The translations under genes were made by a program, and so were the position numbers. Positions 2,312 through 4,096 of a stretch of 4,096 nt of DNA are shown one piece after another (position 1 is the stretch's first letter; each line of letters opens with the position of its first letter). Where the stretch lies: the IMG/VR virus record IMGVR_UViG_2751185973_000002, one strand, 5' to 3'. The notes beneath the pieces are model-generated. The model was not told the origin of the DNA, ran no database searches, and saw only the letters and a program-made list of their open reading frames with translations. Origin of the DNA: a virus (Duplodnaviria; Heunggongvirae; Uroviricota; Caudoviricetes).

Positions 2312-2799
2312 TAAGCCCCCACGTAATTCCCTGACAGATACCACTCATCACCCGATACAGCGCGCTTACTGCTTTTCCGTAAACACTGCTCACGACGCGC
2401 CAGAAAATTGTTTCGTTCTGGCTGGGAGTGGCTTTCACGGAATGCCGCCATCCACACCGTTGCAGCACGACGGTATAAGCCCCTGGACTCCAGTTCTTCC
2501 GCCTGGCGGGTCAGGCACAAAATCTCCCGCGGGTCGTTAGTGCCGACATAGAAATTGCGCACAGGTCTGGTTTCACGAACTGGTTGCGGTTCCGCCTCCT
2601 GCGCTCTCTCAGTCAGGCGCGGGAAATGTCTGCGTGTATCCCCTTCACAACGGTGAGCCACACGACCACTCTGACGTAATTTGCTTGCTGACTGCAGAAC
2701 GCACTGCCGTGAGTAACCTGCAAAAGCATCCGCAATGTCTCCGGAAGTACACCCCGGATGGGCTTCAATGAATTTCTGAACTTCATTCAAAAGACTCAT
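2311..2799 (-). CDS. PerC/Pch-family regulator-like protein with an N-terminal, possibly winged-helix, extension
   Basis: 162 aa. The C-terminal block QAEELESRGLYRRAATVWMAAFRESHSQPERNNFLARREQCLRKS matches the PerC hallmark (E..GL[WY]RRAA..W ... RR..C) as I recall it. The N-terminal 55 residues (MSLLNEVQKFIEAHPGCTSGDIADAFAGYSRQCVLQSASKLRQSGRVAHRCEGD) look like a small helical DNA-binding module. ATG 2799..2797 overlaps the initiator stop as ATGA, and a G7 run (2809..2803) serves as SD. Confidence 0.65.
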   Translation of the reverse strand: MSLLNEVQKFIEAHPGCTSGDIADAFAGYSRQCVLQSASKLRQSGRVAHRCEGDTRRHFPRLTERAQEAEPQPVRETRPVRNFYVGTNDPREILCLTRQAEELESRGLYRRAATVWMAAFRESHSQPERNNFLARREQCLRKSSKRAVSGDEWYLSGNYVGA

Positions 2800-3620
2800 A
2801 ATCCCCCCCTGAATCCTGCCGGGATCTGGCTGTAGTCCACGTTGTCGTAACTGGCTTTGAAGTACGGGTCCTCGCGTCTGGCTGCAGATACCGCAGGAAC
2901 TTCCCAGGATTCTTCGAAATGACGATCTGGACCAAAGAACGTGACAGCCTGTTTCACAAATTGTGTGCCGCTATTGCCCATCGCAGATACCCAGCCCGCG
3001 TAGCGTTTCACACCTTCCAGCATGGTTTCGGGGTTTACCCCCTCGTTCAAACGGGCTTTCCAGGCTTTGAAGGCTGCAGATTTTGAATTGCCACCAGCAC
3101 GTTTGGGATATGCCAGCCATGCCTGCTCAAACTCCGGAGAGTATTCCGGTCGGTTTGAACGAACTCGCACGGACTCATCAACTGATGCACCAACAGCTAT
3201 TGGTTCATTGACTGGTTCTTTGACTGGTTCAAAAGAGTGACTGGTTCTGGGTGAATCTCCTGCACTACCCCTTGGTGCAACTCCTGCACTACCTGGTGAA
3301 TTTGCTGCACCAGATAGTGAATTATTTGCACTACCCCCTAGTGAATCTCCTGCACCATCAAGATGAAGGAGATAGATATTACTTGAGTTACCTTTTTCAC
3401 CTTTCCGGGTGACTTTTTTTACCAGCCCGGACTCACAAAGGGCCGCAATATGATTCATCACAGAACGTTTGCTAATCTCGCACTGGTCAGCAATATGCTG
3501 GTAGCTGGGCCAGCACTCACCCTGATCGCTGGCATTATCAGCCAGCTTAATCAGAACCAGTTTTCGCAATGGATTTCCCACTCGAATTTTCATCGCTTTA
3601 ACCATCAGCTCCATACTCAT
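2796..3620 (-). CDS. Phage replication initiation protein, lambda-O-like N-terminal HTH domain
   Basis: 274 aa. The N-terminus KIRVGNPLRKLVLIKLADNASDQGECWPSYQHIADQCEISKRSVMNHIAALCESGLVKK resembles the lambda O N-terminal DNA-binding domain pattern. A central low-complexity linker (GGSANNSLSGAANSPGSAGVAPRGSAGDSP, EPVKEPVNEPI) is encoded by DNA direct repeats. The C-terminal block YSPEFEQAWLAYPKRAGGNSKSAAFKAWKARL is of a type seen in phage replisome-organiser proteins. Strong SD GGAGGT (3631..3626) lies 5 nt before ATG 3620..3618; stop is TGA 2798..2796. Confidence 0.8.
   Translation of the reverse strand: MSMELMVKAMKIRVGNPLRKLVLIKLADNASDQGECWPSYQHIADQCEISKRSVMNHIAALCESGLVKKVTRKGEKGNSSNIYLLHLDGAGDSLGGSANNSLSGAANSPGSAGVAPRGSAGDSPRTSHSFEPVKEPVNEPIAVGASVDESVRVRSNRPEYSPEFEQAWLAYPKRAGGNSKSAAFKAWKARLNEGVNPETMLEGVKRYAGWVSAMGNSGTQFVKQAVTFFGPDRHFEESWEVPAVSAARREDPYFKASYDNVDYSQIPAGFRGGL
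3209..3247. repeat. Three copies of the 10-bp motif TGACTGGTTC next to the iterons
   Basis: Exact TGACTGGTTC at 3209-3218, 3221-3230 and 3238-3247; on the coding strand it encodes the EPV-repeat segment of the initiator linker. Confidence 0.5.
3251..3359. repeat. Five imperfect direct repeats of about 20-23 bp inside the initiator gene; putative origin iterons
   Basis: GTGAATCTCCTGCACTACCCC (3251-3271), GTGCAACTCCTGCACTACC (3276-3294), GTGAATTTGCTGCACCAG (3297-3314), GTGAATTATTTGCACTACCCCC (3318-3339), GTGAATCTCCTGCACCATC (3341-3359). In lambdoid phages the origin lies within the initiator gene in the inter-domain linker, which is the arrangement seen here. Confidence 0.55.
3361..3420. other. 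AT-enriched stretch beside the iterons; possible DNA-unwinding element of the origin
   Basis: About 65% A+T over 60 bp, against roughly 48% for the window, with a T7 run at 3414-3420. It lies on the 5' side of the iterons in gene orientation. Confidence 0.3.
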
Positions 3621-3841
3621 GCAGCACCTCCGAGATGCTTCATGTTTTTTCCGGAGCGAAAGGCTATAAGCGGCATACTGATGCGGTAATTACGGCCCAG
3701 CGGTTCACAAATCACCTTCTGACATTCACGGTCAACCAGGCTAACACGTAGAACATGCCCTGCAGGCGTGGTGTACCACTGACCCGGACGAGGACAATGG
3801 AAAGTCTGATTGGTAAACCGTTTGAAAATATTCCGGATCAT
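3617..3841 (-). CDS. Small hypothetical phage protein (74 aa), first gene of the coupled array
   Basis: ATG 3841..3839 is preceded by AAGGGGG; the stop overlaps the initiator start as ATGA (3620..3617). Sequence MIRNIFKRFTNQTFHCPRPGQWYTTPAGHVLRVSLVDRECQKVICEPLGRNYRISMPLIAFRSGK... has no HTH and no motif I can assign; it is unlike lambda Cro or CII. Confidence 0.5.
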   Translation of the reverse strand: MIRNIFKRFTNQTFHCPRPGQWYTTPAGHVLRVSLVDRECQKVICEPLGRNYRISMPLIAFRSGKNMKHLGGAA

Positions 3842-3957
3842 TTGCGCCCCCTTACCTCTGAAGGGTTCAGCGACAAATTTATGAGGCAGGCCAGTGCCGA
3901 AGCATCATTAATATAGTCATACAAGCTAACAGCCAGCGGAGATTCGGCTTTTGCCAA

Positions 3958-4009
3958 CTGAAGTGGTCAACAAAAACTGGCCACTGAAGTGGTCAACAAA
4001 AACTGGCCA
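3958..4009. repeat. Perfect 26-bp tandem direct repeat (2 copies, plus a partial third) in the upstream non-coding region
   Basis: CTGAAGTGGTCAACAAAAACTGGCCA at 3958-3983 and again at 3984-4009, preceded by a partial GCCAA at 3953-3957. Each unit carries a TTGACC -35-like hexamer on the minus strand, and the unit junctions form the short inverted repeat CCACT-GA-AGTGG. Confidence 0.8.
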
Positions 4010-4096
4010 CCGAGTTAGAGTTTTTCCAGTATCGATTTTCCGATTCGTTTGGGGGTAACCCACCGTTATATTCGTGCGGTCTTAGTGCGCTGTAAT

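What the first reader, a model, noticed from the sequence alone, without database searches (positions are those of the whole stretch)
3209..3420. Origin-like iteron array inside the replication initiator gene
Five 20-23 bp direct repeats (consensus about GTGAAT-YT-SCTGCAC-YACC), three TGACTGGTTC repeats and an adjacent AT-enriched stretch all fall in the part of the initiator gene that encodes the linker between its N-terminal DNA-binding domain and C-terminal domain. This mirrors lambda ori within gene O, so the region is probably the prophage origin. The AT-rich stretch sits on the opposite side of the iterons from the lambda arrangement.
Basis: partly seen in the sequence, partly recalled or inferred. 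Interest (0 to 1): 0.5.

Follow-up and report, generated by a model that had tools for sequence, protein, structure and literature searches.

The report
Phage replication origin inside initiator gene
The repeats are real and are conserved as DNA rather than as protein, so they are very probably the binding sites of the prophage's own replication initiator (its origin), built like the lambda origin but around an unrelated initiator, next to a 37-base element that is almost invariant in related phages of many bacterial genera.

Summary
Five repeats (cores at 3251, 3275, 3296, 3317, 3341) and three TGACTGGTTC copies lie in the minus-strand initiator gene (2796-3620; SfV orf39 / ST64B sb42 type, HTH_36 winged helix). 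Each repeat is a 15-bp imperfect palindrome, GTGCA-N5-TKCAC on the sense strand, spaced 21 or 24 bp.

In about 85 homologues from many gammaproteobacterial genera:
- The array sits at the same place, and its last unit is always 23 nt before a fixed anchor.
- The same DNA motif is read in two reading frames within one gene in 34 of 52 genes.
- Alanine codons inside repeats are only GCA or GCT.
- The half-site sequence changes together with the recognition-helix motif of the N-terminal domain.

The TGACTGGTTC region is part of a 37-nt element whose synonymous sites are nearly invariant whatever the iteron type or C-terminal domain. It lies on the lambda-like side of the iterons.

There is no detectable homology to lambda O and no adjacent helicase-loader gene. 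Origin function is inferred, not shown. Verdict: a new member of a known kind.

The parts
2796..3620 (-). Replication initiator gene, 274 aa (SfV orf39 / ST64B sb42 / mEp460 gp43 type)
   Evidence: ORF. It is 98-99% identical in DNA to genes annotated as replication protein in mEp460 and SfV. It matches phrog_270 'replication initiation protein' at 1.8e-88.
3360..3620 (-). Coding region for the N-terminal winged-helix DNA-binding domain (aa 1-87). It includes the recognition helix (about aa 49-57, SKRSVMNHI) and the wing (aa 67-87).
   Evidence: Pfam HTH_36 at 1.8e-11. DnaD_N scores 24.3 bits, below its cutoff of 27. A PDB profile search gives a weak hit to the DnaD N-domain 2vn2, E 0.07. Invariant residues here show free synonymous variation.
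3341..3355 (.). Iteron 1, first in gene direction; sense strand GTGCAGGAGATTCAC
   Evidence: 4 of 5 arm positions are complementary.
3317..3331 (.). Iteron 2; sense strand GTGCAAATAATTCAC
3296..3310 (.). Iteron 3; sense strand GTGCAGCAAATTCAC
3275..3289 (.). Iteron 4; sense strand GTGCAGGAGTTGCAC, a perfect 5-N5-5 palindrome
3251..3265 (.). Iteron 5, last in gene direction; sense strand GTGCAGGAGATTCAC. It starts 23 nt before the AGTCAC anchor, as in every homologue examined.
3202..3250 (.). Family-wide conserved DNA element. Sense strand: CCAGAACCAGTCACTCTTTTGAACCAGTCAAAGAACCAGTCAATGAACC. It is 37 nt in the family consensus; this window has one extra 12-nt GAACCAGTCAAA unit. It contains the three TGACTGGTTC copies (3209, 3221, 3238) and the palindrome TTTGA-ACCAG-TCAAA.
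   Evidence: Third-codon-position entropy is 0.00 at 10 of 12 codons across 78 homologues, against 0.5-1.9 bits in the N-terminal domain. Information content is close to 2 bits from -8 to +29 of the anchor, with sharp edges. It is the GC minimum of the gene in hosts with high GC. In IMG/VR it was found only inside genes of this N-domain family.
3360..3420 (.). Assessed as not a separate cis element: it encodes the wing of the winged-helix domain (aa 67-87).
   Evidence: GC 0.35. Synonymous sites of the conserved PKGNSSNxY residues vary freely in 71 homologues. The GC dip is only weak in the family profile.
2796..3201 (-). Coding region for the C-terminal part of the initiator (aa 141-274). This is an exchangeable module, presumably the interface that recruits the helicase.
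   Evidence: phrog_26426 'replication protein' and phrog_1701 'DnaD-like helicase loader' at 7.8e-33. There is no Pfam match. Homologues with the same N-domain carry different C-terminal parts of 110-205 aa.
2805..2831 (-). C-terminal tail SQIPAGFRG (aa 264-272). It is 8/9 identical to the extreme C-terminus of E. coli DnaT (SQIPPGFRG).

Best explanation
**What it is.** The segment 3202-3355 is the cis-acting replication origin of this SfV/ST64B-type prophage. It is embedded in the inter-domain part of its own initiator gene.

**Proposed mechanism (all steps inferred).**
1. Dimers of the initiator's N-terminal winged-helix domain bind the five 15-bp imperfect palindromes (GTGCA-N5-TKCAC). The spacing is 21 or 24 bp, about two helical turns, so the sites lie on one face of the DNA.
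2. The bound dimers form a nucleoprotein complex comparable to the lambda O-some.
3. The adjoining 37-49-nt conserved element (three GAACCAGTCA units here) is the site where the duplex is opened, or where a conserved partner acts.
4. The exchangeable C-terminal part recruits the host helicase machinery. It carries a DnaT-like tail, and no phage loader gene is adjacent.

**Shown here.**
- The repeats and the element are under DNA-level purifying selection.
- The array geometry is fixed across the family.
- Half-site sequence covaries with the recognition helix.

**Inferred, not shown.** Physical binding, unwinding at the element, helicase recruitment and origin activity.
For: 1. **The repeats are far above chance**. 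Each has 4-5 of 5 complementary arm positions.
2. **The architecture is conserved.** Eighty species-level homologues located through the N-terminal peptide alone, plus phage homologues, almost all carry 3-8 such units directly after the winged-helix domain. The last unit is always 23 nt before the anchor. Spacings are 21/24, or 23+22.
3. **The constraint is on DNA, not on the peptide.**
   - 34 of 52 genes with GTGMA-type arrays hold the motif in two reading frames, giving peptides VVQEIHQ and GSAGDSP.
   - Alanine codons inside iterons are GCA 288, GCT 45, GCC 0, GCG 0. Elsewhere in the same genes they are GCC 509, GCT 271, GCG 242, GCA 242.
   - Against AsXd-1 the iteron region has nucleotide identity 0.85 and amino-acid identity 0.64.
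4. **Specificity covaries with the recognition helix**.
   - x[KR]R[ST][AV][MIV]x goes with GTG[AC]N..T[GT]CAC. When the last residue is R, the site is GTGAC..GTCAC.
   - xRSTVKx goes with GGGC[AG]..TGCCC or TGACC.
   - [DN]RSTVR[KR] goes with TAGGC..AAGCA.
   - CS[KR][ST][AT]VRx goes with TGCC[GA]..[TC]GGCA.
5. **Copy number varies in-frame** among near-identical relatives: 5, 6, 7 and 8 units. Stx-phage O genes similarly have 6 iterons where lambda has 4 (PMC7466680).
6. **The adjacent element has invariant synonymous sites** (Arg AGA 73/73, Ser AGT 78/78, Glu GAA 76/76 and others). It is the GC minimum of the gene in 43 loci with high GC (0.43 against 0.55-0.67).
7. **The protein is annotated as a replication initiator**. 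It is the only replication gene in the early-right operon. The module is present on phage-sized circular extrachromosomal records.
Against: - No experiment shows binding or origin activity for this family in any paper I could reach. The SfV genome paper was not available.
- The conserved element is only moderately AT-rich (GC about 0.42). In this E. coli-type context it is no less stable than its surroundings, and the least stable stretch in this window is 3360-3420. Its role as the unwinding element is therefore a guess.
- No DnaA box, GATC cluster or promoter marks the region.
- The homologues are phylogenetically related, so counts overstate the number of independent events.
- Initiator-binding repeats could in principle serve regulation rather than initiation.
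Confidence: 0.8

Rival explanations
1. The repeats are only a repetitive, flexible Gly/Ser/Ala/Pro linker. Their DNA similarity comes from recent slippage duplications and has no cis-acting role.
For: The repeats are in frame and encode G-S-A-G-D-S-P-like peptides in a segment predicted to lack structure. Copy number varies by whole units.
Against: - The same DNA motif occurs in two reading frames within single genes.
- Codon choice inside the repeats is fixed against host bias.
- Nucleotide identity exceeds amino-acid identity.
- The units are palindromic.
- The units change in step with the recognition helix.
Confidence: 0.02
2. The repeats are genuine initiator-binding sites, but they act in autoregulation, copy control or exclusion. 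Examples would be a transcriptional roadblock inside the gene or titration of the initiator. Replication would start elsewhere.
For: The evidence here shows DNA-level selection and covariation with the DNA-binding helix. That proves a binding relationship, not initiation. Iterons in plasmids do have control roles (general knowledge, e.g. Chattoraj 2000 as cited in PMC2647930).
Against: - The layout matches known phage origins embedded in initiator genes: an array, then a fixed-distance conserved and relatively GC-poor element, at the N-domain/C-domain junction (lambda; PMC7466680).
- No other repeat array that could serve as an origin lies in the initiator's flanks within the window, apart from a 26-bp two-copy repeat at 3957-4010.
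- Regulation and origin function are not mutually exclusive.
Confidence: 0.1
3. The 37-nt invariant element is not a replication element. It is a conserved 'linker' kept because it serves as the homologous-recombination junction for exchange between N-terminal/iteron modules and C-terminal modules.
For: - The element sits exactly at the boundary where homologues diverge into different C-terminal parts.
- N-domains 100% identical to this one occur in proteins of 120-467 aa.
- The lambda record annotates recombination points just right of its iterons.
Against: - Selection for recombinability is second-order. It is unlikely to hold 10 of 12 synonymous sites invariant across Pseudomonas, Vibrio, Shewanella, Aeromonas and enterobacterial phages while non-synonymous changes inside the element are tolerated.
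- Its distance from the last iteron is fixed at 23 nt, which points to a structural relation with the array.
- The two roles could coexist.
Confidence: 0.12
4. The invariant element acts at the RNA level, for example as a recoding or pausing signal that yields an N-domain-only product.
For: - Three homologues (L103, L126, L162) read the element in the other frame and terminate within or just after it (..PEPVTLLNQ*).
- The alternative frame is open across the array in this window (ORF 3197-3331).
- The rare Arg codon AGA is invariant.
Against: - I saw no canonical slippery heptamer.
- The single strand has no unusual fold (z = -1.0).
- The truncated genes may simply be pseudogenes or assembly errors.
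- An open alternative frame is expected in any case, because the iterons are used in both frames.
Confidence: 0.04

Closest known systems
Bacteriophage lambda ori within gene O (and the Stx-phage variants)
   Same: - The origin lies in the middle of the initiator gene, in the inter-domain region.
- It is an array of imperfect inverted-repeat iterons: 4 units of 18-19 bp in lambda, 6 in Stx phages.
- A distinct non-iteron segment follows on the downstream side (PMC7466680).
- Iteron number varies and changes the linker length of the protein.
- The N-terminal domain is the specificity determinant.
   Different: - There is no detectable homology between the initiators: BLASTP finds nothing, hhalign probability is 3.6%, and there is no Phage_rep_O Pfam match.
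- The iteron sequence differs.
- The flanking element is about 42% GC with GAACCAGTCA units, not a 40-bp tract of about 20% GC.
- No P-type loader gene follows. The next gene is a PerC/YfdN-family protein.
DnaD-like phage 'replisome organizers' whose origin lies in their own gene (SPP1 G38P/oriL, lactococcal TP901-1 and Tuc2009; from my own knowledge, not checked here)
   Same: - A winged-helix N-terminal domain with weak DnaD_N similarity (24.3 bits; PDB 2vn2 at E 0.07).
- The C-terminal part is labelled 'DnaD-like helicase loader' by PHROGs.
- The repeats bound by the protein lie inside its own coding sequence.
   Different: - The matches to DnaD models are below curated thresholds.
- The hosts are Gammaproteobacteria.
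- There is no adjacent helicase-loader or helicase gene in this phage.
- The invariant 37-nt element has no described counterpart that I know of.
Iteron-type plasmid origins (RK2 TrfA, pPS10/F RepA/RepE)
   Same: - Direct repeats at about two helical turns are bound by a winged-helix initiator.
- An adjacent region carries short repeated units (13-mers in those systems) where strands open. From my own knowledge, some Rep proteins bind one strand of that region sequence-specifically.
   Different: - Those origins are intergenic, whereas this one is inside the coding sequence.
- There is no homology to Rep_3/TrfA.
- No DnaA boxes are present.
E. coli primosomal protein DnaT (C-terminal tail only)
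   Same: The final residues SQIPAGFRG match DnaT's terminal SQIPPGFRG (8/9), and both lie at the extreme C-terminus.
   Different: The rest of the protein shows no similarity. The partner of the DnaT tail is not established in the reviews read (PMC5778457, PMC13220808). Only 4 of 81 family members carry this tail.

Membership tests
Lambda O-type origin/initiator (Pfam Phage_rep_O) | The initiator N-terminal domain belongs to Phage_rep_O or is homologous to lambda O | tested here: not met
   Pfam scan finds HTH_36 only. BLASTP against lambda O finds no alignment. Profile against lambda O gives hhalign probability 3.6%.
Lambda O-type origin/initiator (Pfam Phage_rep_O) | An array of inverted-repeat iterons inside the initiator gene, between the N- and C-terminal domains | tested here: met
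   Five 5-N5-5 imperfect palindromes at 3251-3355, encoding aa 89-124.
Lambda O-type origin/initiator (Pfam Phage_rep_O) | A strongly AT-rich unwinding tract immediately downstream of the iterons | tested here: inconclusive
   A DNA-constrained element occupies that position. It is the GC minimum in hosts with high GC (0.43), but it is only about 42% GC, against roughly 20% in lambda.
Lambda O-type origin/initiator (Pfam Phage_rep_O) | A P-type (or DnaC/DnaB-type) helicase-delivery gene directly downstream | tested here: not met
   The downstream genes are a PerC-family protein, Dam methylase, RusA and a KilA-N protein.
Iteron-type replication origin (general) | At least 3 direct repeats of about 17-22 bp at helical phasing, next to or within the gene of the cognate initiator | tested here: met
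   Spacing is 24, 21, 21, 24 nt. There are 5 units here and 3-8 in homologues.
Iteron-type replication origin (general) | The repeats are specifically recognised by the initiator | not testable with these tools
   Indirect support only: the half-site class covaries with the recognition-helix motif in all classes examined.
Iteron-type replication origin (general) | The repeats are constrained as DNA, independent of coding | tested here: met
   The motif is read in two reading frames. Alanine codons inside repeats are only GCA or GCT. Nucleotide identity exceeds amino-acid identity.
Iteron-type replication origin (general) | The segment supports autonomous replication when the initiator is supplied | not testable with these tools
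   Only circumstantial: the module occurs on phage-sized circular extrachromosomal records for which no plasmid replicon type is listed.
DnaD-like replisome organizer | DnaD N-terminal winged-helix domain (PF21984) | tested here: inconclusive
   24.3 bits, E 3.6e-5, below the curated cutoff of 27. The PDB DnaD N-domain 2vn2 scores E 0.07.
DnaD-like replisome organizer | DnaD/DnaB_2-type C-terminal domain | tested here: inconclusive
   No Pfam match even at E 10. PHROG families labelled 'DnaD-like helicase loader' or 'primosomal protein' match at 7.8e-33 and 2e-15, but those labels are annotations, not tests.

The most novel reading that the evidence does not exclude
The 37-nt element (CCAGAACCAGTCACTCTTYTGAACCAGTCAWTGAACC) is a previously undescribed universal origin core. 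It would be a sequence-specific site for strand opening, single-strand recognition or helicase/primase entry. It is shared by hundreds of phage initiator lineages across Gammaproteobacteria and stays fixed while the iterons, the recognition helix and the C-terminal recruitment module are all swapped. The family would then offer a natural read-out of a winged-helix recognition code (helix motif to half-site), plus an invariant cis element whose partner must be either a conserved feature of the N-domain or a conserved host replication protein.
Probability: 0.3. Interest if true: 0.65.

Novelty: new member of a known kind. Interest (0 to 1): 0.45.

Why it matters
- **Prevalence.** This initiator type is common in E. 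coli, Shigella and Salmonella prophages, including SfV, ST64B, cdtI and several Stx2-converting phages. N-domain relatives form about 800 clusters at 50% identity.
- **What locating the origin allows.** It makes replication, induction-linked toxin gene dosage and incompatibility testable for a group for which I found no described origin.
- **Comparative value.** The data give matched pairs of recognition helix and half-site that could be used to study or engineer winged-helix specificity.
- **An open question.** The data expose a short DNA element held invariant across genera, for which no function is known.

Tried and rejected
- **Homology to lambda O.** BLASTP and a profile comparison were both negative.
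- **Solved structures by sequence.** Only weak winged-helix and DnaD N-domain hits.
- **Structure prediction.** AlphaFold2 on the single sequence gave pLDDT 40, unusable beyond rough secondary structure.
- **Sequence features in the origin region.** No convincing DnaA boxes, no GATC between 2924 and 3524, and no promoter-like sites. By eye, the IHF consensus has 3 mismatches in the element.
- **Single-strand folding.** The array plus element gave z = -1.0, nothing unusual.
- **Literature.** Searches for SfV, ST64B, mEp460, cdtI or Stx 'Eru' together with iterons or origin, and for the literal iteron and element sequences, found no description. The Eru2A protein of PMC8044961 is a different, Phage_rep_O-type protein.
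Rejected as a conserved feature. It is nevertheless the least stable 30-60 nt in this particular window.
Full report
**Context**

The window is the early-right region of a lambdoid prophage, and all genes are on the minus strand:
- a 74-aa ORF of unknown function (3617-3841)
- a 274-aa initiator (2796-3620)
- a PerC/YfdN-family protein
- a Dam methylase
- RusA
- a KilA-N protein

The initiator gene is 98-99% identical in DNA to genes annotated as replication protein in phages mEp460 and SfV. It also occurs in cdtI, ST64B and several Stx2-converting phages. More than 80% of the window is present in 702 of 5426 complete E. coli genomes. PHROGs places the protein in 'replication initiation protein' (1.8e-88). 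Pfam finds an HTH_36 winged helix at aa 17-67 and a sub-threshold DnaD_N match to aa 85. No helicase or loader gene is adjacent, here or in mEp460.

**Observation**

- The five repeats match GTGMANNNNNTKCAC at 3251, 3275, 3296, 3317 and 3341. That is 5 matches against 0.01 expected, though the pattern is post hoc.
- TGACTGGTTC occurs at 3209, 3221 and 3238, which is 3 matches against 0.27 expected.
- On the sense strand each unit is GTGCA-N5-TKCAC, with 4-5 of 5 arm positions complementary. With flanks the symmetry extends to about 19 bp (TAGTGCA..TTCACTA).
- Spacing is 24, 21, 21, 24 nt.
- The units encode aa 89-124 (G-S-A-G-D-S-P-like peptides). The TGACTGGTTC copies encode EPV(K/N) in aa 125-138.
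- The AT-enriched stretch (3360-3419, GC 0.35) is real but modest. It encodes aa 67-87, the wing of the DNA-binding domain, not the linker.

**Is the conservation on DNA or on protein?**

Homologues were collected through the N-terminal peptide only, so the collection was independent of the repeats:
- phage records
- 80 IMG/VR loci with near-identical N-domains
- 80 loci from different species: Enterobacter, Pseudomonas, Aeromonas, Marinomonas, Shewanella, Xenorhabdus, Erwinia, Vibrio and others

Almost every gene has an array of 3-8 units immediately after the winged helix. The last unit starts exactly 23 nt before a fixed anchor (AGTCAC). Spacings are 21/24, or 23+22. Three observations show that the DNA is what is kept.

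1. In 34 of 52 genes with GTGMA-type arrays the same motif is read in two reading frames within one gene, giving VVQEIHQ in one frame and GSAGDSP-like peptides in the other.
2. Alanine codons inside iterons are GCA 288, GCT 45, GCC 0, GCG 0. In the rest of the same genes they are GCC 509, GCT 271, GCG 242, GCA 242.
3. Against Aeromonas phage AsXd-1 the iteron region has nucleotide identity 0.85 and amino-acid identity 0.64. Codons for identical residues are themselves identical in 96% of cases, against 48% in the N-domain.

**Who binds the repeats?**

The half-site differs between clades and tracks the recognition-helix motif of the N-domain encoded by the same gene:

| Recognition-helix motif | Iteron half-sites |
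|---|---|
| x[KR]R[ST][AV][MIV]x | GTG[AC]N..T[GT]CAC (last residue R gives GTGAC..GTCAC) |
| xRSTVKx | GGGC[AG]..TGCCC or TGACC |
| [DN]RSTVR[KR] | TAGGC..AAGCA |
| CS[KR][ST][AT]VRx | TGCC[GA]..[TC]GGCA |

I saw no exception at class level among about 80 distinct combinations. The sequences are related, however, so this is not a count of independent events. Dyad symmetry fits dimer binding, as for lambda O on its 19-bp inverted-repeat iterons (PMC7466680). Among near-identical relatives the array has 5 (typical), 6, 7 or 8 units. This parallels the 4 iterons of lambda against the 6 of Stx phages (PMC7466680).

**The TGACTGGTTC region**

It belongs to a 37-nt element, consensus CCAGAACCAGTCACTCTTYTGAACCAGTCAWTGAACC. 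The window has 49 nt (3202-3250) because of one extra 12-nt unit.

- Across 78 homologues selected by a protein motif, third-position entropy is 0.00 at 10 of 12 codons. Examples are Arg AGA 73/73, Ser AGT 78/78, Ser TCT 74/74, Glu GAA 76/76 and 71/71, Pro CCC 51/51 and His CAC 66/66. Invariant residues of the N-domain show 0.5-1.9 bits.
- Non-synonymous changes inside the element are tolerated (T/I, H/N, F/S/L/P, N/K/I). The constraint therefore falls on the nucleic acid more than on the peptide.
- The edges are sharp, from -8 to +29 of the anchor. The anchor positions themselves were used to align, so their information content is partly circular.
- An exact-pattern scan of IMG/VR returned the element only inside genes of this N-domain family, joined to C-terminal parts of 110-205 aa.
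- N-domains 100% identical to this one occur in proteins of 120-467 aa.

The element thus travels with the N-domain and the iterons and marks the junction with an exchangeable C-terminal module. In 43 loci with high GC it is the GC minimum of the gene (0.43 against 0.55-0.67).

It lies downstream of the iterons in the gene direction, where lambda has its AT-rich tract. From memory, that tract is the part of ori conserved among heterospecific lambdoid phages (Grosschedl and Hobom 1979; not checked here).

The arrangement is therefore probably lambda-like rather than inverted.

Caveat: at about 42% GC the element is not clearly the easiest DNA to melt in this E. coli-type sequence. Its precise role (unwinding, single-strand recognition, host-factor site or recombination junction) is open.

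**Comparison with known systems**

- The architecture works like lambda ori within O, but the initiator is not a member of the O family.
- Similarity to DnaD-type replisome organizers is weak and below curated thresholds.
- No DnaA boxes, GATC clusters, promoters or unusual single-strand folds were found.
- I found no description of these iterons in the searchable literature.

**Verdict**

The position of the AT-rich element is corrected.

The finding is a new member of a known kind, an origin embedded in its initiator gene. The added points of interest are an invariant 37-nt element and a clear covariation between recognition helix and half-site. Direct binding and replication assays are still needed.

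Noticed in passing
window 2805-2831 (-), aa 264-272: The initiator ends in SQIPAGFRG(GL). This is 8/9 identical to the extreme C-terminus of E. coli DnaT (SQIPPGFRG). The same tail occurs on otherwise unrelated phage 'replication protein O / primosomal protein I' genes (hits H107-H109). It may be a short motif that hijacks DnaT's partner in a module that has no loader gene of its own. The reviews read do not say what the DnaT tail binds.
   Followed up: partly
L086-L165 (C-termini of homologues): C-terminal tails differ widely among family members. The DnaT-like IPxGFRG tail is in 4 of 81. Many others end in acidic-hydrophobic peptides reminiscent of the SSB tail (..DDSTPL..EDPLI..WEDFI..RNEYL). 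This suggests interchangeable recruitment peptides.
   Followed up: no
window 3957-4010: A perfect 26-bp tandem repeat, ACTGAAGTGGTCAACAAAAACTGGCC x2.1 (TRF score 108), lies in the intergenic region upstream of the 74-aa ORF. Similarity to the best-matching E. coli genomes stops at about 3958. Its function is unknown; it could be an operator or a module junction.
   Followed up: no
L103, L126, L162 (homologous loci); window 3197-3331 (-): Three homologues are read in the alternative frame through the last iteron and the conserved element, and terminate within or just after it (..HPEPVTLLNQ*). This would give N-domain-only products. The same alternative frame is open across the array in the window (44-aa ORF). 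These could be pseudogenes, assembly errors or real truncated forms.
   Followed up: no
window 2796-2801 (-): The window's protein has two extra residues (GL) after the FRG that ends the 272-aa protein of most close relatives.
   Followed up: no
plasmid records, e.g. NZ_CP148393.1 (L289), CP077666.1, NZ_CP118695.1, and about ten Arsenophonus nasoniae records: The module occurs on circular, non-mobilizable 'plasmids' of 38-48 kb that look like whole phage genomes. They are either induced circular phage DNA caught in assemblies or phage-plasmids maintained by this replicon.
   Followed up: partly
P0001-P0011: Cluster representatives with an N-domain 100% identical to the window's range from 120 to 467 aa. 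This indicates frequent fusion of one N-domain/origin module to different C-terminal parts, or many fragments.
   Followed up: no
The count is at chance level: 1 found against 1.4 expected.
   Followed up: no
window 3617-3841 (-): A 74-aa ORF overlaps the initiator start codon by 4 nt. It belongs to a conserved phage family of unknown function (phrog_1153, 1.3e-45) that precedes the initiator in SfV and mEp460 as well.
   Followed up: no
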